From Squalus acanthias (Eukaryota): a DNA stretch of 64,000 nt. Under the pieces are notes generated by a model. The model was not told where the DNA came from and did not search any database. It saw only the letters and a program-made list of their open reading frames with translations. Positions 1 through 57,259 of the stretch are shown piece after piece. The DNA is taken from NCBI GenBank assembly GCA_030390025.1, contig JASTWF010000033.1:5210001-5274000 (forward strand). The letters run 5' to 3'. A program made the translations under genes and the position numbers. Every line of letters starts with the position of its first letter. The first letter of the stretch is position 1.

Positions 1-3000
1 TTATTCCTCTTGTCTTTTATTCCTCTTGTCTTTTATTCCTCTTGTCTTTTATTCCTCTTGTCTTTTATTCCTCTTGTCTTTTATTCCTCTTGTCTTTTAT
101 TCCATTTGTCTTTTATTCCCCTTGTCTTTTATTCCTCTTGTCTTTTATTCCTCTTGTCTTTTATTCCTCTTGTCTTTTATTCCTCTTGTCTTTTATTCCC
201 CTTGTCTTTTATTCCTCTTGTCTTTTATTCCTCTAGTCTTTTATTCACTTGTCTTTTATTCCTCTTGTCTTTTATTTCCCTTGTCTATTATTCCTCTTGT
301 CATTTATTCCTCTTGTGTTTTATTCCTCTTGTCCTTTATTCCACTTGTGTTTTATTCCTCTTGTCTTTTATTCCCCTTGTCTTTTATTCCTCTTGTCGTT
401 TGATCCTTTCTCTTTTATTCCTCTTGTCTTTTATTACACTTGACTTTTATTCCTCTTGCCTTTTATTCCTCTTGTCTTTTATTCCGCTTGTCTTTTATTC
501 ACTTGTCTTTTATTCCTTTTGTCTTTTATTCCCCTTGTCTTTTATTCCTATTGTCTTTTATTCCTCTTGTCTTTTATTCCTTTTGTCTTTTATTCCTCGT
601 GTCTTTTATTCCTCTTGTCTTTTATTCCTCTTGTCTTTTATTCCACTTGTTTTTTATTAAACTTGTCTTTTATTCCTCTTGTCTTTTATTCCTCTTCCCT
701 TTTATTCCTCTTTTATTTTATTCCTCTTGTCTTTTGTTCCGCTTTTTTTATATTCCTCTTGTCTTTTATTCCCCATGTCTTTTATCCCTCTCCTCTTTTA
801 TTCCTTTTGCCTTTTAATCATCTTGTCTTTTATTCCTCTTATCTTTTATTCCTCTTGTCTTTTATTCCCCTTGTCTTTTATTCCTCTTGTCTTTTGATCC
901 TCTTGTCTTTTATTCCGCTTGTCTTTTATTCCTCTTGTCTTTTATTCCTCTTGTCTTTTATTCCTTTTGTCTTTTATTCCTCGTGTCTTTTATTCCTCTT
1001 GTCTTTTATTCCACTTGTCTTTTATTCCTTTGTCTTTTATTCCTCTTGTCTTTTATTCCTCTTGTCTTTTATTCCTCTTGTCTTTTATTCCTCTTGTCTT
1101 TTATTCCTCTTGTCTTTTATTCCTTTTGTCTTTTATTCCTCTTGTCTTTTATTCCCCTTGTCTTTTTTTCCTCTTGTCTTTTATTCCTCTTGTCTTTTAT
1201 TCCTCTTGTCTTTTATTCCCCTGTCTTTTATTCCTCTTGTCCTTTATACCTTTGTCTTTTTTTCCCCTTGTCTTTTATTCCTCTTGTCTTTTATTCCTCT
1301 TGTCTTTTATTCCTCTTGTCTTTTATTCCCCTTGTCTTTTATTCCTCTTGTCTTTTATTCCTTTTGTCTTTTATTCCCCTTGTCTTTTATTCCTCTTGTC
1401 TTTTATTCCTCTTGTCTTTTATTCCTCTTGTCTTTTATTCCTCTTGTCTTTTATTCCTCTTGTCTTTTATTCCTCTTGTCTTTTATTCCCCTTGTCTTTT
1501 ATTCCTCTTGTCTTTTATTCCTCTTGTCTTTTATTCCCTTGTCTTTTATTCCCTTGTCTTTTATTCACTTGTCTTTTATTCCTCTGTCTTTTATTCCTCT
1601 TGTCTTTTATTCCTTTTGTCTTTTATTCCTCTTGTCTTTTATTCCTCTTGTCTTTTATTCCTCTTGTCTTTTATTCCTCTTGTCTTTTATTCCTCTTGTC
1701 TTTTATTCCTCTTGTCTTTTATTCCTTTGTCTTTTATTCCCTTGTCTTTTATTCCTCTTGTCTTTTATTCCTCTTGTCTTTTATTCCTCTTGTCTTTTAT
1801 TCCTTTGTATTTTATTCCCCTTGTCTTTTATTCCTCTTGTCTTTTATTCCTCTTGTCTTTTATTCCCTTGTCTTTTATTCCTCTTGTCTTTTATTCCTTT
1901 GTCTTTTATTCCTCTTGTCTTTTATTCCTCTTGTCTTTTATTCCTCTTGTCTTTTATTCCTTTTGTCTTTTATTCCTCTTGTCTTTTATTCCTCTTGTCT
2001 TTTATTCCTCTTGTCTTTTATTCCTCTTGTCTTTTATTCCTCTTGTCTTTTATTCCTCTTGTCTTTTATTCCTCTTGTCTTTTATTCCTCTTGTCTTTTA
2101 TTCCATTTGTATTTTATTCCCCTTGTCTTTTATTCCTCTTGTCTTTTATTCCTCTTGTCTTTTATTCCTCTTGTCTTTTATTCCTTTTGTATTTTATTCC
2201 CCTTGTCTTTTATTCCTCTTGTCTTTTATTCCTCTTGTCTTTTATTCCCCTTGTCTTTTATTCCTCTTGTCTTTTATTCCTTTTGTCTTTTATTCCTCTT
2301 GCCTTTTATTCCTCTTGTCTTTTATTCCTCTTGTCTTTTATTCCTCTTGTCTTTTATTCCTCTTGTCTTTTATTCCATTTGTATTTTATTCCCCTTGTCT
2401 TTTATTCCTCTTGTCTTTTATTCCTCTTGTCTTTTATTCCTCTTGTCTTTTATTCCTTTTGTATTTTATTCCCCTTGTCTTTTATTCCTCTTGTCTTTTA
2501 TTCCTCTAGTCTTTTATTCACTTGTCTTTTATTCCTCTTGTCTTTTATTTCCCTTGTCTATTATTCCTCTTGCCATTTATTCCTCTTGTGTTTTATTCCT
2601 CTTGTCCTTTATTCCACTTGTGTTTTATTCCTCTTGTCTTTTATTCCCCTTGTCTTTTATTCCTCTTGTCGTTTGATCCTTTCTCTTTTATTCCTCTTGT
2701 CTTTTATTACACTTGACTTTTATTCCTCTTGTCTTTTATTTCCCTTGTCTTGTTTTCCCCATGTCTTTTAATCGTTTTGTCTTTTATTCCTCTTGTCTTT
2801 TATTCCCCTTTCTTTTATTCCTCTTGTCTTTTATTCCTCTTTTCTTTTATTCCTCTTGTCTTTTATTCTACTTGTCTGTTTTACCTCTTGTCTTTTAATC
2901 CCCTCGTCTTTTATTCACCTTGTCTTTTATTCCCCTTGTCATTTATTGATCTTGTCTTTTATTCCTCTAGTCTTTTATTCCTCTTGTCTTTTATTCCGCT

Positions 3001-6000
3001 TGTCTTTTATTCACTTGTCTTTTATTCCTCTTGTCTTTTATTCCTCTTGTCTTTTATTCCAATTGTCTTTTATTAAACTTGTCTTTTATTCCTCTTGTCT
3101 TTTATTCCTCTTCCCTTTTATTCCTCTTTTATTTTATTCCTCTTGTCTTTTGTTCCGCTTTTTTTATATTCCTCTTGTCTTTTATTCCCCATGTCTTTTA
3201 TCCCTCTCCTCTTTTATTCCTTTTGCCTTTTAATCATCTTGTCTTTTATTCCTCTTATCTTTTATTCCTCTTGTCTTTTATTCCCCTTGTCTTTCATTCC
3301 TCTTGTCTTTTGATCCTCTTGTCTTTTATTCCGCTTGTCTTTTATTCCTCTTGTCTTTTATTCCTCTTGTCTTTTATTCCTTTTGTCTTTTATTCCTCGT
3401 GTCTTTTATTCCTCTTGTCTTTTATTCCACTTGTCTTTTATTCCTTTTGTCTTATATTCCTCTTGTCTTTTATTCCTCTTGTCTTTTATTCCTCTTGTCT
3501 TTTATTCCTCTTGTCTTTTATTCCTCTTGTCTTTTATTCCTTTTGTCTTTTATTCCTCTTGTCTTTTATTCCCCTTGTCTTTTATTCCTCTTGTCTTTTA
3601 TTCCTCTTGTCTTTTATTCCTCTTGTCTTTTATTCCCCTTGTCTTTTATTCCTCTTGTCCTTTATACCCCTTGTGTTTTAATCCCCTTGTCTTTTATTCC
3701 TCTTGTCTTTTATTCCTCTTTTCTTTTATTCCTCTTATCTTTTATTCCTTCTGTATTTTTTATTCCTCTTGCATTTTATTCCTCTTGTCTTTTATTCCTC
3801 TTGGCTTTTATTCCTCTTGTCTTTTATTCCTCTTGGCTTTTATTGCTCTTGTCTTTTATTCCCCTTGTCTTTTATTCCTCTTGTCTTTTATTCCTTTTGT
3901 CTTTTTTTCCCCTTGTCTTTTATTCCTCTTGTCTTTTATTCCTCTTGTCTTTTATTCCTCTTGTCTTTTATTCCCCTTGTCTTTTATTCCTCTTGTCTTT
4001 TATTCCTTTTGTCTTTTATTCCCCATGTCTTTTATTCCTCGTGTCTTTTATTCCTTTTGTCTTTTATTCCTCTTGTCTTTTATTCCTCTTGTCTTTTTTT
4101 CCTCTTTTCTTTTATTCCTTTTGTCTTTTATTCCCCATGTCTTTTATTCCTCGTGTCTTTTATTCCTTTTGTCTTTTATTGCCCTTGTCTTTTATTCCCC
4201 TTGTCTTTTATTCACTTGTCTTTTATTCCTCCTGTCTTTTATTCCTCTTGTCTTTTATTCCTCTTGTCTTTTATTCCTCTTGTCTTTTATTCCTTTTGTC
4301 TTTTATTCCTCTTGTCTTTTATTCCTCTTGTCTTTTATTCCTTTTGTCTTTTATTCCTCTTGTCTTTTATTCCTCTTGTCTTTTATTCATTTTGTCTTTT
4401 ATTCCTCTTGTCTTTTATTCCTCTTGTCTTTTATTCCTCTTGTCTTTTATTCCTCTTGTCTTTTATTCCTCTTGTCTTTTATTCCTCTTGTCTTTTATTC
4501 CATTGGTATTTTATTCCCCTTGTCTTTTATTCCTCTTGTCTTTTATTCCTCTTGTCTTTTATTCCTCTTGTCTTTTATTCCTTTTGTATTTTATTCCCCT
4601 TGTCTTTTATTCCTCTTGTCTTTTATTCCTCTTGTCTTTTATTCCCCTTGTCTTTTATTCCTCTTGTCTTTTATTCCTTTTGTCTTTTATTCCTCTTGCC
4701 TTTTATTCCTCTTGTCTTTTATTCCTCTTGTCTTTTATTCCTTTTGTCTTTTATTCCTCTTGTCTTTTATTCCTCTTGTCTTTTATTCCTCTTGTCTTTT
4801 ATTCCTCTTGTCTTTTATTCCTCTTGTCTTTTATTCCTCTTGTCTTTTATTCCTCTTGTCTTTTATTCCTCTTGTCTTTTATTCCATTTGTATTTTATTC
4901 CCCTTGTCTTTTATTCCTCTTGTCTTTTATTCCTCTTGTCTTTTATTCCTCTTGTCTTTTATTCCTTTTGTATTTTATTCCCCTTGTCTTTTATTCCTCT
5001 TGTCTTTTATTCCTCTTGTCTTTTATTCCCCTTGTCTTTTATTCCTCTTGTCTTTTATTCCTTTTGTCTTTTATTCCTCTTGCCTTTTATTCCTCTTGTC
5101 TTTTATTCCTCTTTTCTTTTATTCCTTTTGTCTTTTATTCCTCTTGTCTTTTATTCCTCTTGTCTTTTATTCCTCTTGTCTTTTATTCCTCTTGTCTTTT
5201 ATTCCTCTTGTCTTTTATTCACTGGTCTTTTATTCCCCTTGTCTTTTATTGCTCTTGTCTTTTATTCCTCTTGTCTTTTCTTCCTCTTTTCTTTTTTTCC
5301 TCTTTTCTTTTCTTCCTCTTTTCTTTTTTTCCTCTTTTCTTTTATTCCTCTTGTCTTTTATTCACTTGTCTTTTATTCCTCTTGTCTTTTATTCCTCTTG
5401 TCTTTTATTGCCCTTGTCTTTTATTCCCCTTGTCTTTTATTCACTTGTCTTTTATTCCTTTTGTCTTTTATTCCTCTTGTCTTTTATTGCTCTTGTCTTT
5501 TATTCCTCTTGTCTTTTATTCCTTTTGTCTTTTATTCCCCTTGTCTTTTATTCCCCTTGTCTTTTATTCACTTGTCTTTTATTCCTTTTGTCTTTTATTC
5601 CTCTTGTCTTTTATTCCTCTTGTCTTTTATTCTTCTTGTCTTTTATTCCTCTTGTCTTTTATTCCTTTTGTATTTTATTCCCCTTGTCTTTTATTCCTCT
5701 TGTCTTTTATTCCTCTTGTCTTTTATTCCTCTTGTCTTTTATTCCTTTTGTCTTTTATTCCTCTTGTCTTTTATTCCTTTTGTCTTTTATTCCCCTTGTC
5801 TTTTATTCCCCTTGTCTTTTATTCCTCTTGTCTTTTCTTCCTCTTTTCTTTTTTTCCTCTTTTCTTTTATTCCTCTTGTCTTTTATTCACTTGTCTGTTA
5901 TTCCTCTTGTCTTTTATTCCTCTTGTCTTTTATTCCTCTTGTCTTTTATTACTTTTGTCTTTTATTCCTCTTGTCTTTTATTGCTCTTGTCTTTTATTCC

Positions 6001-7202
6001 TCTTGTCTTTTATTCCTTTTGTCTTTTATTCCTCTTGTCTTTTATTCCTCTTGTCTTTTATTGCTCTTGTCTTTTATTCCTCTTGTCTTTTATTCCTTTT
6101 GTCTTTTATTCCTCTTGTCTTTTATTTCCCTTGTCTTGTTTTCCCCATGTCTTTTATTCGTTTTGTCTTTTATTCCTCTTGTCTTTTATTCCCCTTTCTT
6201 TTATTCCTCTTGTCTTTTATTCCTCTTTTCTTTTATTCCTCTTGTCTTTTATTCTACTTGTCTGTTTTACCTCTTGTCTTTTAATCCCCTCGTCTTTTAT
6301 TCACCTTGTCTTTTATTCCCCTTGTCATTTATTGATCTTGTCTTTTATTCCTCTAGTCTTTTATTCCTCTTGTCTTTTATTCCGCTTGTCTTTTATTCAC
6401 TTGTCTTTTATTCCTCTTGTCTTTTATTCCTCTTGTCTTTTATTCCACTTGTCTTTTATTAAACTTGTCTTTTATTCCTCTTGTCTTTTATTCCTCTTCC
6501 CTTTTATTCCTCTTTTATTTTATTCCTCTTGTCTTTTGTTCCGCTTTTTTTATATTCCTCTTGTCTTTTATTCCTTTTGTCTTTTAATCATCTTGTCTTT
6601 TATTCCTCTTATCTTTTATTCCTCTTATCTTTTATTCCTCTTGTCTTTTATTCCCCTTGTCTTTTATTCCTCTTGTCTTTTATTCCGCTTGTCTTTTATT
6701 CCTCTTGTCTTTTATTCCTCTTGTCTTTTATTCCTTTTGTCTTTTATTCCTCGTGTCTTTTATTCCTCTTGTCTTTTATTCCTCTTGTCTTTTATTCCAC
6801 TTGTCTTTTATTAAACTTGTCTTTTATTCCTCTTGTCTTTTATTCCTCTTCCCTTTTATTCCTCTTTTATTTTATTCCTCATGTCTTTTGTTCCGCTTTT
6901 TTTATATTCCTCTTGTCTTTTATTCCCCTTGTCTATTATTCCTCTCCTCTTTTATTCCTTTTGTCTTTTAATCATCTTGTCTTTTATTCCTCTTATCTTT
7001 TATTCCTCTTGTGTTTTATTCCTCTTGTCTTTTATTCCTATTTTCTTTTATTCCTCTCGTCTTTTATTCCTCTTGTCTTTTATTCACCTTGTCTTTTATT
7101 CCTCTTGTCTTTTATTCCTCTTTTCTTTTATTCCTCTTGTCTTTTATTCTACTTTTCTTTTTTACCTCTTGTCTTTTATTCCCCTCGTCTTTTATTCACC
7201 TT
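1..7202. repeat. 16-bp tandem satellite, consensus TTATTCCTCTTGTCTT, about 450 copies, truncated by the window start
   Basis: Continuous repetition of ttattcctcttgtctt, with variants (CCCC, CCTT, CACC, CACT) and occasional 15-bp monomers. 14 of 16 bases on the + strand are pyrimidines. Confidence 0.98.
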
Positions 7203-7975
7203 GGGGGAAAAATTCAGCTGCTTGCGCCTCCCGTTAGCGCCTTAAGAGGGCGCTAATGGGGCGTAAAGCAGCTAACGCTCGGGCGCAGCGCCGCCCACGC
7301 CTCCCGAAAAAATTAGTGGGAGGTTAGCGGCGGCGGCAGCCGGTAGCGCCCTGTGGCGCTGCGCCGCCGGCGATGACGTCATCGCCGTGCGCAGCACCAC
7401 GCTCGCGCCCCGGCCGTGATCTTCAGTCGCGCCCCCTGATTTACCGCCAGACGCTATGTCCGACGGGTTCAGGGAGGCGTACGTGCGGCCGGGGCGGCGA
7501 TATTTAAAGGGGAGGTGGCAGGCGGCCATTTTTGTTGCTGGCCGCCTGCCAGCACCTGCCCCCGTTGCTGTCCCCGGCCCCCGTGAAGCCCCCCCACCGT
7601 GAAGTGCCGGCTGCGCTCCAAGAGCCCGGCACTTCTCTTGAGTGCCGGGCTCTTTTGCCGGCACTCCCGATCCCTGGGGACCCAGCTGGGCCCCGGTTCG
7701 CGCTGCGCACGGTCCCTCCCCTTTAAGAAGGGGAGGAAGGCCTGCAATACCGCGGCGCGACGTGCCGCAGCGCGTGGCGCTGCGGCACGTAGCGCCAGGA
7801 TATTCACTCGCAGCGCCCCAAGAGGGATGCGTGGTGCTTCCAGTGGCGCCCCGCTTCCCTCTTGGGGCGCAACCACTGAAGTTCCGGCGCGGGGCCGCTA
7901 ATTTTTTCGGGGCGCTAAAAGTCGCGCCCCGGCGAGGTTAGCGCCCCAAACGGGGCGCGACTCAATTTTTACCCC
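7203..7975 (-). mobile_element. Non-autonomous PIF/Harbinger element (MITE-like, 773 bp), inverted relative to the adjacent autonomous copy
   Basis: Termini GGGGGAAAAATT (7203) and AATTTTTACCCC (7975). The first 88 bp match the reverse complement of 12091-12178 at 81/88 (manual count). The last 35 bp match the reverse complement of 7992-8026 with 2 mismatches. No transposase. GC- and CpG-rich. Confidence 0.85.
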
Positions 7976-8247
7976 AACTTTTATTCCCCTTGGGCTAAAA
8001 ATTAAGTCGCGCCCCGTTTGGGGCGCACATATCGTCCGGGCGCAAAAATTAGCGCCTGGCACTAATTATCGCCACTGACTGGAAACTTCACTTTTACCGC
8101 CCCGGGAGGAGAGTGGAGCGCTAAATCAGGCGCTGCACACCTGTCTTAAGGCGCAAAGGCCAAGGAGTGAGGCGCTAACTCAGAGCGCGAGCGCAGCGCA
8201 GGTGCTGCCAGTTAGCGAGGGAACACAGACACACTGGCGCCGGCCAG

Positions 8248-8259
8248 TTCTTAAAGGGG
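8248..8259 (+). promoter_or_regulatory. TATA-like box TTCTTAAAGGGG upstream of the Myb gene
   Basis: About 100 bp upstream of ATG 8349. Retained in reverse (CCCCTTTAAGAA, about 7719-7730) in the non-autonomous copy. Confidence 0.4.
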
Positions 8260-8348
8260 GGGGCGATCTTGCTCCCCAGCCACACCCTGCTCATTGCAGC
8301 CTTGAATCTCGGCCTGGAGAGACCTGTGAATCCATTTTCCAGCCAAGG

Positions 8349-10201
8349 ATGGAGAGGGTGAGAGAACGAGCTCAGCGCTTCACCGAGCGGGCCTTGGCTG
8401 CTCTGGTTGGCGCGGTGGAGCGCCAAAGAGCAATACTTTACCCAGAGAGTGGCAGGAGGCCTTTGCCGCGCGACTACAGAAGAGTCTGGAGGGAGGTGGC
8501 TCAGCGCGTCTCCTCCAGGAGCATGGTGCCCAGGACCCATGTCCAATGCCGGAAAAAGTTCAACGACTTCACTCGGGTCGTCAGGGTGAGTGGCTTTTTT
8601 GCAATACCTCTCCATCCCTCCATCTCAACCTCACTCTATGGCCAGAGGGTCTTAAAACCACAATTAACAACACTCATCCAACACCTATGGCCCTTTCATG
8701 AAGCACACACACACATTCCATACTTTGCATACAGTAAGGGCTATTCACCTATGGGAGGCACATCAGGCAATACCATGGCTGTATTCAGTAAGGGCTATTC
8801 ACCTATGGGAGGCACATCAGGCAAGACCATGGCTGCATACAGTAAGGGCTATTGACCTATGGGAGGCACATCAGGCAAGAACATGGCAGTATATTTACTC
8901 AGACGCCGTCCTTTTTTTTGCAGGCCAAGCTGGCGTATAATAGGAGACAGCAGCAGCGGACGGGTGGAGGGCGGCCTCAGCTGAAAACCCTCAGCGATCT
9001 GGAAGAGCGCGTCCACAGGATTGTGGCAAGCCGGGTGATCGGTCCCGTCGCCACTGGAGACGCCGACCCCGTTCTGGACAGCAATGGTAAGGTCATCACC
9101 TTTTTGTCCTCTGTCCTTCCACTTGTCCCTCACAACACCAGCCTTTGACACTTTCAATCCAACTTACTAACTCGCTGTACTTTTTCCTCCCTTACTGCCA
9201 CCCTGTCCTCACGCTAAAGCCACTCTTGTACCTCCCTGCTTTCAGATGGTGATTCACCAGCTGAGGAGACGGGCCCTGAAGCTGCCAGTGGGAGTGAAGC
9301 TGCAGCCGAGGAGGAAGAGGAAGCCGGAGCATCAGTGCCACCCTCTCCCGAGGAAGCCCATGCCGACACTGGGAACACGCCTTCCCTGGAGGTGAGCAGG
9401 GGGGAAGGGTCTGATGAGGGTGAAGCTCCAGGACCCAGCGGGCTGCAGCAACGCGATGGGGGTAGGGAAGCTCGGGGGCCTTCTCCCCGGAGGGAGAGTA
9501 TGCCAGCGAGTCCTGCTGCACTCGACGCAGCGGAGGAGCGGCTGATCGCGGAAATGAACACCCAGGCGGTGGGCATGCACACTGAGCTCATGGCTGCAGT
9601 GGGTAGGGTGCCCGAATGCATTGAAGCACTGGCAAGGAGTGTGGAGCACTTCGCTGCAGCGCAGGCGGATGCGACACTGAAGCTCAGTGCTGGAATTCAA
9701 TCTCAGACTGCTCTCATGCAGGCTCAGATTGAGGTCACGCGAGTGCTGTCTGCTGCCATCCTCGCTGGTTCTTTCACATTTCCCCGGGGCTCTAACCGCG
9801 CCGCAGCAGGCCAGCAATCTGTGCTCCAGCAGATTGCTCCGGATGCTGAGGTGCTGCCCCGTGGGAGTGCCAGTGTGCCGGTCGAGCAGAGAGTTGCTGT
9901 CCTCGCTCAAGATGACAGCATTCCTGCTGCCACCACTGTCACTTATCCACTGCACTTGCCACCGCCTGTAGGACAGACTGCTGCCGCCCATGCAGAGTTG
10001 GTGCAGTCTGCAGCCGGGCCCTCCAGGCCCAGAGCTGGTCGAGGCCGTCCCTCAAGGGCATCTGCATTGTCGGGGCCTGACAGTCAGCAGCCTTCCACCA
10101 GCCTTGCTGCAGCCACTGAGGTCCCATTGCGGAGGAGCAGTAGAGTAAGAAGGGGGGAAGTGCGCAAGGGAAGGAGATCACCCTCGAAGGGCAAAAAGTA
10201 G
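8349..10201 (+). CDS. Harbinger Myb/SANT-like (trihelix, MSANTD/NAIF1-type) DNA-binding protein; exons 8349-8585, 8924-9086, 9246-10201; predicted 451 aa
   Basis: Exon 1 reads RAQRFTERALAALV...WREVAQRVS...RTHVQCRKKFND (Myb/SANT signature) and exon 2 contains RTGGG. GT-AG junctions at 8586/8923 (phase 0) and 9087/9245 (phase 1) join into an open 1356-nt frame. An acidic linker, a helical segment and a basic NLS-like tail (RRSSRVRRGEVRKGRR) follow. Confidence 0.88.
8726..8887 (+). repeat. 54-bp minisatellite, 3 copies, inside intron 1 of the Myb gene
   Basis: CAGTAAGGGCTATT(C/G)ACCTATGGGAGGCACATCAGGCAA recurs at 8732, 8786 and 8840. Confidence 0.9.
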
Positions 10202-10228
10202 GAGGTGTGACAAAATGTTGGTCATTTT

Positions 10229-10237
10229 TTTATTAAA
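10229..10237. terminator. Overlapping bidirectional polyadenylation signals between the convergent Harbinger genes
   Basis: TTTATTAAA gives AATAAA on the - strand (10229-10234) and ATTAAA on the + strand (10232-10237). Further hexamers lie at 10329 (-) and 10379 (+). Confidence 0.45.
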
Positions 10238-10512
10238 GGCCGAGTTTCGTGGTCAAACTTTTGTTTAGTGTTTTGGACATTATCTCCAGGTTATGAGAAC
10301 CAGTTATGGTAATGACTGTTTTTTGGTGTTTATTTCTATTAGTTTGTCATGAAGAAATGACACACACAGAGTTTGTAAAATAAATAAGTTTTTGTATGCA
10401 AAATATACGTGTTTGGTGTTTGGAATCATTGGTGCCTTGGCCGGCTTAGGGGTTGCGTGTTGGGTTCTTTCATGTTGTTCTCAATGGCAGAAGCCATTTC
10501 CACAGCAGGGGC

Positions 10513-11673
10513 CTAGAAGCGGCTTGCTATCAGCCGTTGACGGACGGCCCTTGCAGTTTCACCATTGTGGGCCGCCCTCACGCCTTGGTGCTGCTGATGA
10601 TCATCCTCCTCCTCCTCTTCCTCTTCTTCCTCCTCCTCCTCTGATGGTGCTCCAAGGCCTGGTGGCATTGGCTGGGTCTTCAGGATTGCCATGTTATGCA
10701 GCATGCAGCACACAACTACGAAGTTGGGAACTCGCTCAGGCGAGTACTGCAGGGCTCCTCCAGAATGGTCCAGACAGCGGAACCGTTGCTTGAGCACGCC
10801 GATTGTGTGCTCCACGATGTTCCTGGTAGCTTGATGGCTCTCGTTGTACCGCAGCTCAGCATGGGTGTTGGACGTAGGGAGCGGTGTCATCAGCCAGGTG
10901 CTCAGTGGATACCCCTTGTCCCCGAGAAGCCAACCAACTGGCTGATGCGGTGCCTCGAAAAGTTCTGCTACAGTAGTCTGGCGCAGGATGAAAGCATCGT
11001 GGCAGCTGCCAGGATAGTGGGCATTGACAGCGAGTATCAGCTGTCTGTGGTCACAGACCAACTGAACATTCAAGGAATGGAACCCCTTTCTGTTCCGGAA
11101 ATCCTTGGCATTCTCATGCGGAGCACGCAAACCCACATGCGTGCAGTCAATGGCGCCCTGCACCATGGGGAAGCCCGCTATCCTCGGAAAGCCCAGAGCA
11201 CATTCTTGCTGCTTGTCTGGGGTCATGGGGAAAGAGATGAACTCTCGTCTCCTTTTAAAGAGGGCATTTGTGACCTTCCTGGTGCAGCAGTGCACCGCAA
11301 ACTGGGAGATATTGGCGATGTCCCCAACAGCAGATTGAAATGAGCCAGTAGCATAAAAGTTCAGAGCCACTGTGACCTTCACTGCCACCGACAGAGACGT
11401 CCTGGACCTCAGCTGAGGCTGCAGATCTGGCTGCAGCAGGTGGCAGAGCTCAGTGACCACCTCCTTGCTGATGCGCAGCCTTCGCAGACACTGCTCCTCA
11501 GACATATGAATGTAGGAGAGCTGTTCACGATATATCCTGGGAGGGTAAGCTCTCCTGTACAGACGCCTGTTGGCCCTCCTCCATCTGGCCATCATTGCCA
11601 CTCTCTCTCTGCGTCTCTGTGTCCTCCGATTCAGCTGGCGCAGGACGACGCCCCCCATCAGTGCAGCCCCCAT
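10513..11673 (-). CDS. Harbinger DDE transposase (HARBI1-like, DDE_Tnp_4 family), single exon, 386 aa from the first ATG
   Basis: Motifs GAIDCTH, NRKGFHSLNVQ, PGSCHDAFIL, LLGDKGY, RNIVEHTIGVLKQRFRCL and CCMLHN, plus a poly-E tail. No stops or frameshifts. Confidence 0.95.
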   Translation of the reverse strand: MGAALMGGVVLRQLNRRTQRRRERVAMMARWRRANRRLYRRAYPPRIYREQLSYIHMSEEQCLRRLRISKEVVTELCHLLQPDLQPQLRSRTSLSVAVKVTVALNFYATGSFQSAVGDIANISQFAVHCCTRKVTNALFKRRREFISFPMTPDKQQECALGFPRIAGFPMVQGAIDCTHVGLRAPHENAKDFRNRKGFHSLNVQLVCDHRQLILAVNAHYPGSCHDAFILRQTTVAELFEAPHQPVGWLLGDKGYPLSTWLMTPLPTSNTHAELRYNESHQATRNIVEHTIGVLKQRFRCLDHSGGALQYSPERVPNFVVVCCMLHNMAILKTQPMPPGLGAPSEEEEEEEEEEEEDDHQQHQGVRAAHNGETARAVRQRLIASRF

Positions 11674-11870
11674 ATCTCTAAGCAAGCAAAGTTATGAAGG
11701 CCAGAAACCAAAGTACCAGCAAAGTTAGGATGAGTCGCCAAAACTACCTGACACAGCGTTGACTCAATGCAGAAGTCTCTCTTTCTCTCTCTCCGAATCT
11801 CTCTCTCTCTCTCAGAACGAGTGGTGCAAAAATGTCCACCACAGAGAAAGACAGGAAGAGGCCCCCTTTA

Positions 11871-11882
11871 AATAGAGCCCCC
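11871..11882 (-). promoter_or_regulatory. TATA-like box TATTTAAAGGGG upstream of the transposase
   Basis: About 200 bp upstream of the ATG, with a (GA)n tract between them. The same motif is retained at 7501 in the non-autonomous copy. Confidence 0.45.
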
Positions 11883-12194
11883 CCCAGCCCCACAGCGAAT
11901 TATAGCGTTCCACTCTACCGGTCGTTGGATGCGCCAGGCGGTAAGGATGGGGGCGCCACTGAAATTCTGGTCCGGGGCGCCACAAGGGCGTTGCACTCTC
12001 GTATGACAATCTGCGCGCGCAAGAGATCGCGGCGATATAGTTTAGCGCCGCCGCTAAATGTCTAGTTAAGTTCCTGAGCGGCGCAAACATCGCTGCGCCC
12101 GGGCGCTAGCTGCTTTGCGCCCCATTAGCGCCCTCTTAAGGCACTAACGGGAGGCGCAACCAACTGCATTTTTCCCCCGATGTCTTTGAATCAA

Positions 12195-15100
12195 CGACAC
12201 CTTTTAAAGAGCGAGACTTTCTATCAGGTACCCTTTTAAAAGGGAATCTTACTGTTACGGACACATTTAAAGAGAGAGTCTCACCATCAGGGAAACCTTT
12301 TAAAGAGGGTATCTCCCCATCAGGGTCGGCTTTCAATGATTGTGTGTCTCCAGCAGGGTCCCCTTTTAATGAGGGAGTCTCACCATCAGGGACCACTTTT
12401 AAAGAGGGAGGCTCACCATCAGGGACCCCTTTTAAAGAGAGTGTCTCGCCATCAGCGACCACTTTTAAAGAATGAGTCTCACCATCAGGTACACGTTTTA
12501 CAGAGGAACTCTTACCATCAGGGACCCATTTTAAAGAGAGAGTCTTTCTTTCAGGGACCCCTTGTAAAGAGTGAGTTTGACACTCGGTGACCCATTTTAT
12601 AGAGGCAGTCTTTCTATCAGGAACCACTTTTAAAGAGGGAGTCTTTCTATCAGTGACTCCTTTTAAACAGAGAATCATCCCATTAGGGACCCATTTTAAA
12701 GAGAGAGTCTCACCATCAGGGACCACATTTAAAGCGATAATCTTTCCATCAGGACCCCTTTTAGAGAGGGAGTCTTTCTATCAGGGATCCCATTAAAAGT
12801 GAATCTTCCTTTTACGGACACCTTTTAAATAGAGAGTATTTATATCAGGGACACATTACAAAGTGAGTTTTACCGTCAGGGTCTCCTTTTAAAGAGGGAA
12901 GCTCAGCATCAGTGGCCCCATTTAAAGGGAGTGTCTCACCATTAGGGAGCCCTTTCAAAGAGGGAGTCTTACCATAAGGGACCCCTTTTAAAAAGAGTCT
13001 CACCGTCATTGTCTGCTTTTAAAGAGGGAGTCTCCCCAGCAGGGATCCCATTTAAAGAGTGAGTTTCACCATTAGGGGCCCCTTTTAAAGAGGGAGTTTC
13101 ACCATGAGGGATCCCTTTTAAAGAGGGAATCTCACCATCAGGGACCCCTATTAAAGAGGGTGTTTCAGCATCAGGGAATCCTATTAAAGAGGGAGTCCCA
13201 CCAACAGGGACCCATTTTAAAGTGTGTGTATCATCATCAGGGACGTCTTTTAAAGAGAGATTTTCACCATCTGGGAACAATTTTAAAGAGGGAGTCTCAA
13301 CATCAGGGATCACATTTAAAGTGGGCGTCTTACTATCAGGGACACTTCCATAGAGAGAGTCTTTCTATCAGGGACCCCTTTTAAAGATAATCTTCCTATT
13401 AGGACATCTTTTAAAGAGAGCTTCTCGCCATAAGGGACCACTTTTAAAGTGGGAGTCTCACCACCAGGGACCCCTTTTAAAGAGGGAGACTCACAATCAG
13501 GGACCCGTTTTAAAGAGGGAGTCTCACTATCAGGGACACATTTTAAAGAGAGTCTTTCTTTCAGAGACTCCTTTTAAAGATGCAGTCTCACCCTCGGCGA
13601 CCTGTTTTAAAGAGAGAGTCTTTCTAATTGGAAACGCTTTAAAGAGGGAGTCTTTCTATCAGTGACCCCTTTTAATCAGAGTCTCCAAATTAGGGACACC
13701 TTTTAAAGAAGTAGTCTCACCAACAGTGAACCCTTTTAATGAGGGTTTTTCATTATTCGCGACTCCTATTAAAAAGGGAGCCTCACCAACAGGGCCCCAT
13801 TTTAAAGAGAGAGTCTCACCATCAGGGAGCTCTTTTAAAAAGAAAATCTTTCTCTGAAGGACCCAATTTAAAGAGGGAGTCTTTCTATCAGAGACCCCAT
13901 TTAAAGAGAATCTTCATATTAGGGACACCTTTTAAAGAGATTTTTTCGTCAGGGTCTCGTTTTAAATAGGGAATCTCAGCATCGGAAGCCCCTTTTAAAG
14001 ACCGAGTGTCCACATTAGGAAGCACTTTAAAGAGGGAGTCTCACTATCAGGGACCCCTTTTAAAGAGAGTCTCACCGTCAGTGTCTCCTTTTAAAGAGGA
14101 AGTATCATCATCAGAGTCCCCTTCTAAACAGGGAGTCTCACCATCAGGGACCCCTTTTAAAGAGGGAGTATAACCATCACGGACCCCTTTAAAAGAGAGA
14201 GTCTTCCCACCAGGTATCCCTTTTAAAGAGGGAGTCTCACCTTCAGTGGCCCCTTTTAAAGAGAGAGTCTCATCATAAGGGACATATTTTAAAGAGGGAG
14301 TCTCACCATCAGGTATCCCATTGAAAGAGAGAGTCTCATTATCAGGGATCACTTTTAAAGAGTAATCTTTCCATCAGGGACCCCTTTTAAAGAGGGAGTC
14401 TTTTTATCAGGGACCCCATTTAAAGCGAATTTTCCTATTCGGGACACCTGTTAAAGAGAGATTCTCAACATCATGGAGTCCTTTTAAAGAGGGACCCTCA
14501 CCATCAGCGTCCAATTTTAACGACGTTGTTTCAGCTTCAGGGATTCCTATTAAGGAGAGACTCTCACCATCAGGGACCCCTTTTAAAAAGGGTGTCTCAT
14601 TCTCAGGGGCCTCTTTTAAAGAGGCAGTCTCCCCATTAGGTATCCCTTTTAAAGAGAGATTCTCACCCTCAGGGGCCCCTTTTAAAGAGGGTGTTTCACC
14701 AACAGGGACCCCTTTTATCCAGAGAGTTTCCCCATTAGGGATCTTTTTTAAAGAAGAGGTCTCACCATCAGGGATCCCTTTTAAAGAGGGAGTATTCCTA
14801 TCAGGGAGACATTTTAAAGTTGGACTCTCACCATCAGAGACCATTTTAAAGAGGGAGTCTTTCTATCAGGGACCCCTTTTAAAGTGAGTCTTACCATCAG
14901 GGACGCCTTTTAAAGACAGTCTCACCATCAAAAATGTATTTTAAAGAGGGAGTCTCACCATCAGGGATCCCTTTTAAAGATAGATTTTCCTCGTCAGAGA
15001 CCCTTTTAAAGAAGGAGTCTTTCTACCAGGGACAACTTTTAAAGAGCGTGTATCCCCATCAGGGACCCCTTTTAAAGAGGGATTCTCACCATCAGGGACC

Positions 15101-15655
15101 CCTTTTAAAGAGGGAGACTCGCCATCAGGGATCTCTTTTAAAGAGGGAGTATATCCATTAAGGCTCCCATTTAAAGAGAGAGTCTCTCCGTCAGAGACAT
15201 TATTAAAGAGGGATTCTTTCTATCAGGGAGCCCTTTTAAAGAGTGAGTCTCACCATCAGGGATTCCCTTTAAAGAGTGAGACTCGCCATCAGGGAGTCCT
15301 TTTAAAGAAGCAGTCTTTCTATCAGGGGGCCCTTTTAAAGAGAGAGTCTCCCCATTAGCGACACATTTTAAAGGGGCAGTCTCACCTCCAGGGACCCTTT
15401 TAAAAGAGGATGTCTCACCATCAACGAACGCTTTTAAAGAGGGAGTCTCCCCATCAGGGACCCCTTTTAAAGAGAGAGACTCGCCATCAGGTACCCTTTT
15501 AAAGAGGGAGTATCACCGTCAGGGACCCGTTTTAATGACAGGGTCTCTCCACCAGGGACCCCTTTTAAAGAGGAAATCTCTGCATCAGCGACCCCTTTTA
15601 AAGGGGATGTTTCAGCATCAGAGTCCCCTTTTAAAGTGGGGGTATCCCCGTCAGT
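12195..15655. repeat. 33-bp tandem satellite, consensus TTTTAAAGAGGGAGTCTCACCATCAGGGACCCC, about 105 diverged copies
   Basis: Visible periodic repeat. The 11-aa periodicity (ETPSLKGVPDG) of the minus-strand ORFs confirms a 33-nt unit. Confidence 0.95.
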
Positions 15656-17039
15656 GTGTAAAGGAATGAGACATATTTCAGAAAAATACACCATCCTATG
15701 AACGGAATTCTGATTTTGTTGAAATATGACAAACTGGGTTTAAAAATCTAAAAGCCTGAATGACACAAATCTGTAAATACAGGCTTCTGAGATAAGACGA
15801 ACCACAAAGCTGGAAACACCATACAAGCTTATGAAATAGGAATTGGTTATTGATATTGAGATAATGTCCTCATTAAAACAGAGGATTGTAGGTTCTAAGA
15901 AGTCTGCAGTTTGGAACCAACTCAATAGCTATACCCAGTGTAAAGTGTTATAAACTAACACTTCGAACAGAAACACAGAACATTAAAAAACCATGTGTCT
16001 TTGTAAATGTAACATCAGATGAAAGACAGGAAACATACGTTTGTAATATAACCAACTAAGATGGCTGGGGAAACAATCAAGTACTCGATTGAAGTGTTTT
16101 TGATGTACATATTGTCAAAGGTAAAAACAGAAGACTTGGTAAATATTACATCAATAGATGCATCAAGTAATCACATGGTTTATGTGTTGAAATTGGAACA
16201 CAAAGAGATGCAAAGTCTCTAATACAAGCAGTTAAAGTAATTTAAGAATTCAATAGGAGTACCTCGTAAGAATGGCATCAAATTGTTAAATCTGTCATTA
16301 CAATTTTGTATGATAACTTTCGAACACCTAAAGATAGAGACAGAATTCTGCAAGTTAGCAGCTGAATTCACAGTAAGAATAGAAAGAAGTCAACAGAAAG
16401 ATGACTGGAGATAATTAGTTTACATCAGCAGAAATATTCAAAGAATATACCACTGCAAAAAGGGTATAAAATATAGAGCTGTCAGATTGGAAGTCAGAAG
16501 TCGCTGGAAGGGGCAAAGCAATTCTCAACTTCAGAGGCAGGCTCTGTAACTTTTTATCTTTGAGTCTCGGGGATCAAACGTTACTTTTATTTGATTTTGT
16601 TGGATATTCTGTGTTATAAATATGTACGAAGATTGGAAATGTAACGAAGTTAAGATTTGAGAATAAGGATCTCTGATAAGAAATGTAAGCCATTTGAATT
16701 TTGAAGTGATAAAGTTGCGATTGAAATCACCAACTGTTAAGTACATGTCGGTTCTTTAATAAATCTATACATTTTTAGAATTGTCTCACAGAGTACTTCT
16801 GTATCAAACTCGAAAACTCAATTTCTGTACGCTTTTTTGTGAGGAGTAGCAGAATTCTGTTTTTTTTTCCAGAACCTCATAATAGCCAGAAGGTTACAGT
16901 CTAGATAAACTTATTACAAGAGCTATCTGGAGGATGGTAACATCTTCAAGTCATTCATTTCCTTTATGGAGAGATAGTCTGACATTACCAGTCTGAACAA
17001 TCCTAGCATTGAAGGCTTGGCACCCAACCAGGGCCTCTT

Positions 17040-17330
17040 GAATTCCCCCATGCCTTGGCAACCTTGCCCACAAACACACAAGTGAAGGCTCTGTTTGATA
17101 CCTGAGCTGATTACACTTTAATAGATCCTGCAATTATAAAAACTAACTGGACAGATTTGGGAAGCCCAATTTGTAAAAGACCTTTAGGGGGATTGAACCA
17201 AAATAATTAATTTTTACAAAATACCTATTACTATATATGGAATCACGGTGACCCTAGATGTAGGACTGGTACCACAATTGTGCTGTTCCCTCATTATAGG
17301 AGAACCAGACATGAAACATTACCTTAAAAT
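17040..17330 (+). pseudogene. Decayed retroviral aspartic protease (retropepsin)
   Basis: 17082-17129 translates VKALFDT*ADYTLIDP (DTGA with GGA>TGA). After a frameshift it reads KIPITIYGITVTLDVGLVPQLCCSLIIGEPDM, which carries the C-terminal hydrophobic-hydrophobic-G motif. Confidence 0.75.
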
Positions 17331-17569
17331 TTCAACTAGATCCTTAGAAGCATACACAGACAAGGATGACATGGAAAGACATGTTCGAACACAGCTTGAT
17401 CGAACTTGCCTGGAGGGGGAGGCAAATACCTCCTCGAGCAACTCATTAATAGATACTTCCTTTATCGACAACGCCATCTAAATTAATGTGGAAAGATTGA
17501 GCATCTCCGCATCATGGAGGACGATGATACGGAGGAGGGAATTAGATAAATAACTATGAGACCGCTAAC

Positions 17570-18019
17570 AGAATACTATCAAGTTATTTAATGTGATGTA
17601 ACATCAATGACGATTGAAAAAGTGACATCCCAACAATCTTCAGCTGGGATGGGGTTAGTAGTAGGGACTTTTCGGGATTCCTATTCTTTTTATACAGATT
17701 AATTTCTGTCTAAACCCCTTGGCCATAAGACGGCGCATTATGCTGATGCCACAGAATTACGGTATGTTTAGAGAAGGCAGACTATATTAAAACCGCACTG
17801 TTGGAAGAAATTCTCCGTTCGAGAATGGAGAAACATAATTGTCAGGTGATTCATGTAAACGGGCATACCACTGAGATAGTACACCCAAAAGGCAACAGCC
17901 TTGCTGACGAACAAGCAAAACGTTCGGTCTGCATGACGCCCCCTCGAGAGGGGACTGCCAATGTTAGTGTGAGCACTAAGGCAGAACGGGCAGCTAAACA
18001 GGATAAAGAACTGATTTAG
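17570..18019 (+). pseudogene. Decayed retroviral RNase H (foamy/spumaretrovirus-like) and possible start of integrase
   Basis: Motifs in the expected order across frameshifts: YQVI*CD, SAGMGLVV, KPLGHKTAHYAD, KPHCWKK, VIHVNGH...VHPKGNSLADEQAK. Compared from memory with prototype foamy virus FYTDGS...NAGMGIV...IPLGNHTAQMAE...KPLKHISKWKS...HEKGH...IHTEGNALAD. Confidence 0.75.
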
Positions 18020-18037
18020 CTATTGGACCCGATAACA

Positions 18038-18145
18038 GAGAATATAAGAACATAAGAACATAAGAAATAGAAGCAGGAGTAGGCCAATCGGCCCCTCGAG
18101 CCTGCTCCGCCATTCAATAAGATCATGGCTGATCTGATCCTAACC
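18038..18145 (-). mobile_element. CR1-type LINE (or LINE-derived SINE) 3' tail fragment
   Basis: (AAGAACAT)n followed by AGCAGGAGTAGGCCAATCGGCCCCTCGAGCCTGCTCCGCCATTCAA, homologous to the 3' UTRs at about 62915 and 63270. Confidence 0.8.
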
Positions 18146-18199
18146 GCCAATCTACTATCTATCACAGAACCATCTCCTGCATCTAACAGAATTGCACAC

Positions 18200-18650
18200 A
18201 CGAAATAGGAGCAGAATCAGGCTACACGGTCCCTGGGCCCGCTCCACTACCCACAGGGCCATGACCGGATCCGAACCTAGACTCATGTCCAAATTCCTGC
18301 CCGCTCCCCGTAACCCTTAATGCCCTTTACTTCTAGGAAACTGTCTATTTCTGTTTTAAATTTATTTAATGATGTAGCTTCTACAGCTTTTTGTGGCAGC
18401 ATATTCCATGGACCTACCACCCTCTGAGTGAAGTAGTTCCTCCTCATCTCAGTTTTGAAAGAGCAGCCCCTTATTCTAAGACTATGTCCCCTAGTTCTAG
18501 TCTCACCCATCATCGGGAACATCCTCCCCGCATCCACCCGATCCAACCCCTTCACAATCTTATATGTTTCAATAAGATCGCCTCTCATTCTTCTGAACTC
18601 CAATGAGTAGAGTCCCAATCTACCCAACCTCTCCTCATATGACCACCCCA
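18200..18650 (-). mobile_element. 5'-truncated CR1-type LINE: ORF2 C-terminus and 3' UTR
   Basis: SYEERLGRLGLYSLEFRRMRGDLIETYKI...TRGHSLR...FTQRVV..WN.LP, with stop at 18283. Confidence 0.92.
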
Positions 18651-18673
18651 GGATATCCACCAAGGTAATTTTA

Positions 18674-21600
18674 CAGTAATATTAGAGTAGGGTCACCACC
18701 AGTAATGTTAGAGTAGGGTCACCGCCAGTAATGTTAGAGTGAATCAACACCAGTAATGTTAGAGTAGGTTCATCACCAGTAATTTTAGAGTATGGTCTCC
18801 ACCAGTAATGTTAGAGTAGTGTCACCAGCAGTAATGGTAGAGCAGGGTCACCACCATTAATGTTAGAGTAGGGTCACCACCAGTAATGTTAGAGTAGAGT
18901 CACCACCAGTAATGTTAGAGTAGGGTCACCACCAGTAATGGTAGAGCAGGGTCACCACCATTAATGTTAGAGTAGGGTCACCAGCAGTAATGGTAGAGCA
19001 GGGTCACCACCATTAATGTTAGAGTAGGGTCACCAGCAGTAATGGTAGAGCAAGGTCACCATCAGTAATGTTAGAGTAGGGTCACCACCAGTAATGGTAG
19101 AGCAGGGTCACCACCATTAATGTTAGAGTAGGGTCACCAGCAGTAATGTTAGAGTAGGGTCACCACCAGTAATTTTCGAGTAGGGTCACCACCAATAACG
19201 CTAGAGTAGGCTCACCGCCAGTAATGTTAGAGTAGAGTCACCAGCAGTAATGTTTGAGTACTGTCACTACCAGTAATGTTAGAGGAGGGTCACCACCAGT
19301 AATGTTAGAGTAGGATCATCACCAGTAATGTTAGAGTAGGGTCACCACCAGTAATGTTACAGTAGGGTCACCACCAGTAATGGAGAGTAGTGTCACCAGC
19401 AGTAATGGTAGAGTATGGTCTCCACCAGTAATGTTGGAGTAGGTTCACCACGAGCAATGGAGAGTAGTGCCACCACCAGTAATGTTAGAGTAGGGTCTCC
19501 ACCAGTAATGTTAGAGTAGACTCAGCACCAGTAATGGAGAGTAGGATCACCAAAAGTAATGTTTGATTAGTATCACCACCAGTAATGTTTGAGTAGGGAC
19601 ACCGCCAGTAATGTTAAAGTAGGGTAACCATCAGTAATGTTTGAGGAGTGTCACCAGCAGTAATGTTAGAAGAGGTTCATCACCAGTAATGTTAGAGTAG
19701 TGTCACCAGCAGTCATGTTAGAGTAGGTTCACCACCAGTAATGTTTCAGTAGTGTCACCAGCAGTAATGTTAGAGTAGAGTCACCATCAGTAATGTTAGA
19801 GTAGGTTCACCACTAGTAATGTTAGAGTAGAGTCACCACCAGTAATGATAGAGTAGGGTCACCAGCAGTAATGTTAGAGCAGGTTCACCACCAGTAATGT
19901 TAGAGTAGGTTCACCACCAGTAATGTTACAGTAGGATCATCACCAGAAATGTTAGAGTAGAGTCACCACCATTAATGTTAGAGTAAGGTCACCACCAGTA
20001 ATGTTAGAGAAGGTTTACCACCGGTAATGTTAGAGTATGGTCACCACTAGTAATGTTAGAGTAGGGTAACCAGCAGTAATGTAAGTGTAGAGTCACTACC
20101 AGTAATATTTGAGTGGGGTCACCAGCAGTAAAGTTGGAGTAGGTTCACCACTAGTAATGTTAGAGTAGAGTCACCAACCAGTAATGTTGGAGTAGATTCA
20201 CCACCAGTAATATTTGAGTACTGTCACCAGCAGTAATGTTAGAGTATGGTCACCACCAGTAATGTTAGAGTATGGTCACCACCAGTAATGTTAGAGTAGA
20301 CTCACCACCAGTAATGGAGAGTAGGGTCACCACCAGTAAGGTTTGATTAGTGTCACCACCAGTAATGTTTGAGTAGAGACACCGCCATTAATGTTAAAGT
20401 AGGGTCACCAGCAGTAAATGTTTGAGGAGTGTCACCAGCAGTAATGTTAGAATAGGTTCACCACCAGTAATGTTAGAGTAGTTTCACCAGCAGTAATGTT
20501 AGATTAGTTTCACCAAAAGTAATGTTTCAGTAGTGTCGCCAGCAGTAATGTTAGAGTAGGTTCACCACCAGTAATGTTAGAGTAGGATCATCACCAGTAA
20601 TGTTAGAGTTATGTCACCACCAGTAATGTTAGAGTAGAGTCACCACCAGTAACATTTGAGTGGGTTCACCAGCAGTAAAGTTGGAGTAGGGTTACCACCA
20701 GTAATGTTAGGGCAGGGTCAGCACCAGTAATGTTAGAGTAGGGTCACCACCAGTAATATTTGAGTACTGTCACCAGCAGTAATGTTAGAGTATGGTCACC
20801 ACCAGTAATGTTAGAGTAGGGTCACCACCAGTAAAATTAGAGTTGGGTCACCACCAGTAATATTAGAGTAGGGTCACCACCAGTAATGTTAGAGTGAGTC
20901 ACCACCAGTAATGTTAGAGTAGGTTCATCACCAGTAATGTTAGAGTATGGTCTCCACCAGTAATGTTAGAGTAGTGTCACCAGCAGTAATGTTAGAGTAG
21001 GTTCACCAGAAGTAATGTAAGAGTAGGGTCACCATCAGTAATGTTAGAGTAGGGTCACCACCAGTAATATTAGAGTAGAGTCACTACCAGTAATGCTAGA
21101 GTAGGTTCACCAGCAGTAATGTTAGAGTAGGGTCACCAGCAGTAATGTTAGAGTAGGGTCACCACCAGTAATGGTAGAGCAGGGTCACCAACAATAATGT
21201 TAGAGTAGGATCACCAGCAGTAATGTTAGAGTAGGATCACCACCAGTCATGTTCGAGTAGGGTCACCAGCAGTAATGTTAGAGTAGGGTCACCATCAGGA
21301 ATGTTAGAGTAGGTTCACCACCAGTAATGGAGAGTAGTGTCATCACCAGTAATGTTAGAGTAGGGTCTCCACAAGTAATGTTTGATTAGTGTCACCACCA
21401 GTAATGTTTGAGTAGAGACACCGCCATTAATGTTAAAGTAGGGTCACCAGCAGTAATGTTTGAGGAGTGTCACCAGCAGTAATGTTAGAGTAGGTTCACC
21501 ACCAGTAATGTATCAGTAGTGTCGCCAGCAGTAATGTTAGAGTAGTGTCAACATCAGTAATGTTAGAGTAGGTTCACCACTAGTAATGTTAGAGTAGAGT

Positions 21601-56667: not shown

Positions 56668-57259
56668 AAAAAAAACGGAAACTTCCTGTCCAAACTAGAG
56701 TTAAATTACAACTACCTTTTAGAACGGCCGTCTTCTGTTAGGACGGAAAGGGTTTATTGTTGTTAAAATAAACAGGTATCAGAAAAAAAATTCCGTGACA
56801 TTCTGCCGTGTGTTTGATGTCTGCTGCTTTCCCCGTGTGAACAGAATCGTTTTTTTCTAAAACAGCGCCCTTCCCGCTCAAGATTCAGAAAGAACAGTCA
56901 TAACTGAGCTTCAGCAGTGGAGTAGAACATGTGGGCGTCAGCGTTAACTGCCTCACACAACAGGCAAAGGAATGAGATGCTCAGTTTAATTAACAGGTAA
57001 TGTTTCATTTAGTGTAGTAACAATGTGTTACAATGGTGGTTATCTGTAATTCTGTAATCTTGGTGTGAATGTTGCAGGCGCTGATCTCCCCATCAGACAC
57101 CGCCTCCCATTGTCTCCTGGACTAATAGAACGGGGCCCTGTCTCCTGATCAGTGTCTGATGATGGAGACAGTAGGAACTTGACTCGTCAATGTGACATTA
57201 GACAACTTTGTTCACAAATATTTACTGAAAATCTCAACTGGTCATCACAATGTTGGAAT

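What the first reader, a model, noticed from the sequence alone, without database searches (positions are those of the whole stretch)
7190..12190. Two Harbinger elements inserted in register into adjacent monomers of a satellite that resembles the Harbinger target site
Seen: the small element follows ...TTCAC-CTT and the large one follows ...TTCCC-CTT, the same position in the monomer. The spacer between them (7976-7991, AACTTTTATTCCCCTT) is exactly 16 bp, one monomer. After the large element come 3 bp (GAT) and then the satellite continuation GTCTTT. Established (from memory): zebrafish Harbinger3_DR prefers AAACACCWGGTCTTT and duplicates CWG. The reconstructed empty site CACCTTGTCTTT matches its right 12 bases at 11/12, CTT occupies the CWG position, and the small element sits in a rare CACC-variant monomer. 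Inference: the satellite is an array of Harbinger landing sites, either targeted by this family or amplified from a target site next to the element. Caveats: the 3-bp duplications are imperfect (CTT/GAT, CTT/AAC) and the left AAA half-site does not match.
Basis: partly seen in the sequence, partly recalled or inferred. Interest (0 to 1): 0.75.

Follow-up and report, generated by a model that had tools for sequence, protein, structure and literature searches.

The report
Harbinger pair bridging two satellites
Two copies of a very abundant cut-and-paste transposon sit one repeat unit apart at the edge of a 16-base satellite, in the one phase that weakly matches the landing sequence the family prefers genome-wide; the satellite is not measurably favoured, and the larger copy joins it to a different satellite, likely through a later rearrangement.

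Summary
Partly confirmed. Window 7203-7975 (non-autonomous) and 7992-12178 (both genes intact) are head-to-head copies of one Harbinger family with about 68,000 copies in this shark-like genome. The family makes 3-bp duplications (29 of 33) at ARASWC-WWW-GWSTYT: zebrafish Harbinger3_DR half-sites, but an A/T centre rather than CWG. Register is real: 5 of 6 independent insertions elsewhere in this satellite are exact, one is a base off. But the monomer is a weak site and insertion density is 0.7-1.9 times the genome average, so it is not a special target; arrays also begin without any Harbinger. Two details are wrong: clean neighbours give a 19-bp spacer (seen on C3513), so 16 bp is a damaged junction; and GAT-GTCTTT starts a different 33-bp satellite, whose empty site exists in paralogues. 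The large copy is therefore a rearrangement joint, as is a second copy on C1461; 9 of 21 satellite insertions have swapped or broken flanks versus 4 of 33 elsewhere. The family's real landing array is an 8-bp microsatellite (482 of 721 neighbouring pairs are 11 bp apart). The scan noted satellite phasing and 8-bp trains before on other DNA. Mostly a known trait.

The parts
1..7202 (+). 16-bp satellite (GTCTTTTATTCCTCTT-type); right end of a 93.6-kb array that starts at G000:C2561:5123570
7194..7202 (+). Left half-site and 3-bp centre (ATTCAC CTT) of the small element's target, a rare better-matching monomer
   Evidence: 5.5 bits; 0.4% of monomers score as high
7203..7975 (-). 773-bp non-autonomous Harbinger, opposite in orientation to the large one (A end left, B end right)
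   Evidence: (40 near-full-length matches of 94-100% among 40 scored candidates)
7976..7991 (+). 16-bp spacer: one satellite monomer with a damaged left junction (expected CTTGT replaced by AA), ending in the large element's left half-site and centre ATTCCC CTT
7992..12178 (+). 4187-bp two-gene Harbinger (B end left, A end right)
8349..10201 (+). Myb/SANT-like gene; predicted exons 8349-8585, 8924-9086, 9246-10201 give an open 451-aa frame
   Evidence: PF13873 hit; GT-AG search; splicing inferred
8729..8893 (+). 54-bp tandem repeat (3.1 copies) in the first predicted intron
10513..11673 (-). HARBI1-like DDE transposase, 386 aa, open; acidic residues D176, D226, D252, E288 present
   Evidence: PF13359, homologues, alignment, positions
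12179..12187 (+). 3-bp centre and right half-site (GAT GTCTTT) of a target inside the 33-bp satellite; its left half is missing here
12179..15654 (+). 33-bp satellite, cut at its left end by the large element

Best explanation
Two copies of one abundant Harbinger family sit at the only phase of the 16-bp monomer that resembles the family's genome-wide target, and the large copy has 16-bp satellite on its left and 33-bp satellite on its right, likely because its flanks were exchanged after insertion. Shown: the family preference (ARASWC WWW GWSTYT, 3-bp duplication), fixed register in both satellites, no clear enrichment, the foreign right flank and its empty paralogous site. Inferred steps: (1) the large copy inserted at ATTCCC-CTT-GTCTTT and the small one a monomer upstream at the better CAC variant; (2) the small copy's inner junction lost 5 bases and gained 2; (3) the large copy's right flank was replaced by a target half-site in the 33-bp satellite, deleting or moving what lay between. 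For step 3 I commit to ectopic recombination between two full-length copies, one in each satellite (about 0.5), over a transposase-driven one-ended event (about 0.35) or a misjoin (about 0.1).
For: Target logo from 56 duplication-perfect sites. The consensus monomer's best register is the one used (1.6 bits, next -1.5), yet lies below the 10th percentile of real sites (4.7). Register-free searches: 4 of 4, 7 of 7 and 5 of 5 rows at the predicted gap, 9 of 10 rows lying in arrays, the tenth one base short, with 4 of 14 rows dropped as not in arrays. 4 of 6 scored sites are better-than-consensus variants (Fisher p=6e-4). 33-bp satellite: 6 of 7 and 4 of 5 rows in the register of the window's right junction. 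Empty paralogous site scores 9.5 bits. Second, independent bridge on C1461 (88% identical copy). Swapped flanks sharing one AAA duplication across two copies on C1373. Irregular flanks 9 of 21 in satellites vs 4 of 33 on C1 (p=0.02). Both bridging copies are full length.
Against: No reciprocal product found: none of the 39 of 65 rows that I inspected is a 33-bp left junction with a GAT/AAT centre. No switch of nearest relative along the large copy in 300-bp windows against 40 other copies, so no mosaic signal. The enrichment range (0.7-1.9) does not exclude mild favouring. The weight matrix is scored in-sample and three of six sites use an assumed right half. The satellite set comes from one-ended searches and fetched stretches, not a census; C394/C3245 and C2274 were seen after the count and left out. 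Public contigs could not phase the two ends.
Confidence: 0.65

Rival explanations
1. The joint was made by the transposase itself: the large copy's A end, paired with a nearby B end (its own on the sister chromatid, or the small copy's), attacked a good site in the 33-bp satellite and deleted what lay between, as in Ac/Ds alternative transposition.
For: The junction is exactly at a strong target centre; a second element lies 16 bp away, and nearby ends are the substrate for such events in maize (PMC3744419, passages); both genes are open; no mosaic signal; inverted-flank copies on C3513/C1151, C3622, C2450.
Against: Recombination between two inserted copies gives the same in-register junctions; about 68,000 copies supply partners; no reciprocal product with a shared triplet found; no paper found for such events in Harbingers.
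Confidence: 0.3
2. One reading: the 16-bp satellite is an array of landing sites that this family actively targets, or was amplified from a target site beside an element.
For: Fixed register; perfect right half-site in every monomer; clusters of two and three insertions within 1-2 monomers; upper enrichment estimate 1.9-fold, p=0.005 at the smallest array-size estimate; GTCTTT is kept in the derived GCGTCACCTC variant satellite.
Against: Consensus monomer is a weak site; density near genome average; no insertion inside 93.6-kb and 31.5-kb arrays or found beside the variant satellite; array borders without elements; the unrelated 33-bp satellite shows the same phasing; clustering of neighbours is genome-wide (721 pairs vs 41 expected).
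Confidence: 0.08
3. The 16-bp/33-bp join is an assembly misjoin through the repeated element.
For: Both flanks are satellites; the contig is unplaced-size; public contigs do not span the element.
Against: The best-matching other copy is only 95% identical among 36 scored; a second, different copy makes the same kind of bridge on C1461; no N gap in the stretch.
Confidence: 0.08

Closest known systems
Zebrafish Harbinger3_DR / Harbinger3N_DR (PIF/Harbinger); seen in passages of PMC3016246 and PMC2836001; the primary paper was not held
   Same: Two genes (DDE transposase plus Myb-like protein), non-autonomous partners, 3-bp duplication, 15-bp palindromic preference whose half-sites AAACAC and AAAGAC fit ARASWC
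   Different: Centre is A/T-rich WWW rather than CWG; about 68,000 copies; preference read from genomic copies, not from an assay
Tandem TE dimers by double insertion (McGurk and Barbash 2018, PMC5932611, passages)
   Same: Insertion-site preference produces neighbouring copies; best-matching sites are reused
   Different: Here the second copy usually takes the next site 8 or 16 bp away (482 of 721 pairs have 11-bp spacers) rather than the same site with only a duplication between
Ac/Ds reversed-ends transposition and NAHR between elements (PMC3744419, passages)
   Same: An element with one flank replaced by a distant target half-site and no matching duplication
   Different: No reciprocal product or progenitor allele is available here, so the two routes are not separated
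Repeat-specific elements such as R1 in rDNA (described in PMC5932611, passage)
   Same: Fixed insertion position within a tandem unit
   Different: Almost all copies lie outside the satellite and no clear enrichment was found

Membership tests
PIF/Harbinger DNA transposon | DDE_Tnp_4 (HARBI1-like) transposase | tested here: met
   PF13359 E=1.6e-40; best homologues 53-65% identical, named putative nuclease HARBI1, from cartilaginous fishes
PIF/Harbinger DNA transposon | Second gene with Myb/SANT-like domain | tested here: met
   PF13873 E=8.9e-10; open spliced frame predicted
PIF/Harbinger DNA transposon | Terminal inverted repeats shared by autonomous and non-autonomous copies | tested here: met
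   12-bp core at all four ends; A ends 92% alike over 88 bp, B ends 72% over 130 bp
PIF/Harbinger DNA transposon | 3-bp target site duplication | tested here: met
   Family: 29 of 33 position-ordered C1 copies, 24 of 29 small copies, 9 of 17 large copies with both ends located out of 29. Absent at both window copies, which is explained as secondary
PIF/Harbinger DNA transposon | Extended palindromic target preference (15 bp in vertebrates) | tested here: met
   literature passage in PMC2836001
PIF/Harbinger DNA transposon | Both proteins required for mobility | not testable with these tools
   needs a cell assay
Harbinger3_DR-type target | CWG central triplet | tested here: not met
   C at the first position 9%, A/T about 91% at each position
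Satellite-targeted element | Fixed register in the unit | tested here: met
Satellite-targeted element | Strong enrichment in the array over the rest of the genome | tested here: not met
   0.7-1.9-fold; 22 of about 135,000 termini
Same-site double-insertion dimer | Spacer equal to one target duplication | tested here: not met
   spacer is 16 bp of satellite
Element-bounded rearrangement (NAHR or alternative transposition) | Two flanks from different target sites | tested here: met
Element-bounded rearrangement (NAHR or alternative transposition) | Reciprocal product sharing the triplets, or mosaic element | tested here: inconclusive
   none found, searches not exhaustive

The most novel reading that the evidence does not exclude
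Harbinger ends act as sequence-specific joints that cut and re-join satellite blocks in this shark-like genome: the transposase itself, using ends of neighbouring copies, makes deletions and inversions at in-register sites, so that many borders between different satellites are transposase products.
Probability: 0.22. Interest if true: 0.62.

Novelty: new member of a known kind. Interest (0 to 1): 0.3.

Why it matters
It shows that the 15-bp half-sites known from one zebrafish element are shared by a very large cartilaginous-fish family with a different central triplet, and that in-register insertion in a satellite follows from that preference without any special targeting. The more useful lead is that copies inside satellites often have exchanged flanks, which makes these loci a test set for whether vertebrate Harbingers drive rearrangements directly or only serve as recombination substrates.

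Tried and rejected
Composite transposon (outer A ends moving both elements together): rejected, outer triplets differ (CTT/GAT) and the flanks are different satellites. Satellite amplified from an element-adjacent site: no element at the C2561 left edge (an 18-bp satellite abuts it), at C28 or at C1108. Insertions in the GCGTCACCTC variant satellite: 0 matches in either orientation. Mosaic test of the large copy: no switch. Reciprocal product: not found among the 39 of 65 rows inspected. Public runs: only short contigs; spacer centre covered at depth 4-10 in two samples, no listed piece bridges it and no 19-bp form appeared, so inconclusive; one sample may be the source of the assembly. The 100 flanks listed were read by eye only and not used in the matrix. 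The end-finding script located both ends for 17 of 29 large copies; 12 were dropped. Literature: searches (listings only, except the four papers read in passages) found no paper on Harbinger phasing in shark satellites or on Harbinger alternative transposition; subscription journals and Repbase reports are not covered, and no supplements were read.

Full report
1. What is in the window. A 16-bp satellite runs to 7202, a 33-bp satellite from about 12179 to 15654. Between them lie a 773-bp element (7203-7975), a 16-bp spacer and a 4187-bp element (7992-12178). The longest inverted repeat pairs the small element's left end with the large element's right end (93 nt, 90%), and the two inner ends match each other, so these are head-to-head members of one family with distinct A and B ends. 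The large copy encodes an open 386-aa DDE_Tnp_4 transposase and a Myb/SANT-like gene. Its closest homologues are HARBI1-like proteins of sharks and rays, so the host is probably a cartilaginous fish (inference).

2. The family and its target. The 12-bp terminus occurs 140,608 times against 5,271 for the reversed control, about 68,000 elements. Duplications of 3 bp are exact in 29 of 33 position-ordered copies on C1 and 24 of 29 other small copies. From 56 duplication-perfect sites the preference is ARASWC WWW GWSTYT (A 0.65, R 0.87, A 0.88, S 0.71, W 0.88, C 0.69; centre about 0.91 W). The zebrafish consensus AAACACCWGGTCTTT (PMC3016246, passage) has half-sites that fit this; its CWG centre does not. 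A 15-bp preference in vertebrate Harbingers is already stated in PMC2836001 (passages and section 7).

3. Register. In the consensus monomer the best phase is ATTCCT CTT GTCTTT at 1.6 bits, the next at -1.5; real sites have median 8.6 and 10th percentile 4.7. Searches that left the gap free found 4 of 4, 7 of 7 and 5 of 5 rows at the predicted gap. A looser one gave 14 rows, 4 not in arrays; 9 of the other 10 were exact and C1461 was one base short. After merging duplicates (C3513 a/b 99% identical; C1151 with C3513; the two on C424) there are 6 independent insertions outside the window, 5 exact. Four of six scored sites are variants better than the consensus monomer, the window's CAC site among the top 0.4% (combined p=6e-4; in-sample matrix, three right halves assumed). 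The unrelated 33-bp satellite is phased in the same way: 6 of 7 and 4 of 5 rows, the two exceptions lying outside arrays.

4. Enrichment. The dimer pattern occurs 13,047 times; 7,005 lie in the 197 kb of arrays I fetched, giving 0.32-0.66 Mb in all and 12-24 expected termini. Observed: 22, or 17 without the duplicate contig, a ratio of 0.7-1.9 (p=0.005 only for the smallest size estimate with duplicates kept). The 93.6-kb array has no internal insertion. Homogenisation may purge insertions, so mild favouring is not excluded, but strong targeting is. Array borders without elements argue against amplification from an element-adjacent site.

5. Adjacency. End-to-end pairs within 30 bp number 721 against 41 expected; 482 have an 11-bp spacer, that is an 8-bp unit plus a duplication, and only 6 have 16 bp. 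On C3513 the 16-bp satellite gives 19 and 35 bp with perfect duplications. The window pair fits this habit, but its spacer is 3 bp short: a damaged junction, not a cleaner one. Neighbouring copies from site preference are known in Drosophila (PMC5932611, passages), there at the same site.

6. The right junction. After GTCTTT the sequence matches the 33-bp unit at 20 of 27 bases and the 16-bp unit at 9 of 27. L127, L128 and L130 hold the same patch uninterrupted, with AAAGAG AAT GTCTTT at the junction point, a 9.5-bit site, and about 1.6 kb more array upstream on C1021. The large copy thus carries the left half of one target and the right half of another. A different copy (88%) bridges the same two satellite types on C1461. 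Counting independent events seen in fetched satellite stretches, 9 of 21 have inverted, foreign, mismatched or truncated flanks (8 of 19 without the window) against 4 of 33 imperfect on C1 (p=0.02).

7. Mechanism and rivals. Insertion phase follows from the known extended preference (shown for this family from genomic copies). The flank exchange is inferred. Ectopic recombination between two full-length copies and transposase-driven one-ended events both give in-register junctions without a duplication (PMC3744419, passages). I favour recombination slightly because partners are abundant and both bridges are full length; against it, no mosaic signal and no reciprocal product. A misjoin is unlikely but untested, since public contigs do not span the element.

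8. Earlier notes. I had stated my reading before seeing that the scan had noted 33-bp phasing without enrichment in another genome, trains in 8-bp tails, overwritten duplications and a same-end inversion. They are unchecked notes, not support. An overwritten triplet could account for AAC or GAT; I did not test it.

9. Verdict. Real elements, real register, ordinary cause; two details of the observation wrong; the bridge between satellites is the modest new point. New member of a known kind, interest 0.3.

Noticed in passing
genome-wide; e.g. L005, L007, L026, L046: The family piles into an 8-bp microsatellite (TATGAYTC type): 5,245 of 140,608 termini have one exact flank of it and 482 of 721 end-to-end pairs are 11 bp apart. 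The motif overlaps itself at period 8, so each insertion leaves a new site one unit away (inference). That these repeats are LINE tails is recalled, not tested.
   Followed up: partly
G000:C3513:224099-251897 and C1151:798-43303: Three copies within 35 and 19 bp; the first has inverted satellite on its two sides (CAT centre both), the third is truncated and runs into a very homogeneous variant 16-bp satellite of at least 37 kb. The two contigs are 99.6% identical over 27.8 kb but differ at that junction.
   Followed up: partly
G000:C1108:25829-46853: The TATTCCTCTT-type satellite grades through intermediate monomers into the GCGTCACCTC-type with no transposon, so the two 16-bp satellites are one family keeping GTCTTT.
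   Followed up: partly
G000:C1373:429780-431614: Two copies about 230 bp apart in the 33-bp satellite whose flanks are swapped and share one AAA triplet, an apparent inversion.
   Followed up: partly
16-bp arrays on C2561, C3513, C424, C1461: 5 of 8 independent insertions in the 16-bp satellite are full-length (about 4.2 kb) against 6 of 33 in the C1 sample; unexplained.
   Followed up: no
window 18674-54500: 26-bp satellite, 1380 copies; its best site scores 1.2 bits.
   Followed up: no
window about 55760-56670 (+): Single-exon stretch that by eye resembles a G-protein-coupled receptor gene (recalled resemblance, not searched).
   Followed up: no
window 15655-18674: Decayed repeat-like segment also present, interrupted, inside 33-bp arrays on C1021 and C2450 (74-87%).
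   Followed up: no
G000:C424:9777-23372: Duplicate of the C424 insertion interrupted by a 9.5-kb insert.
   Followed up: no
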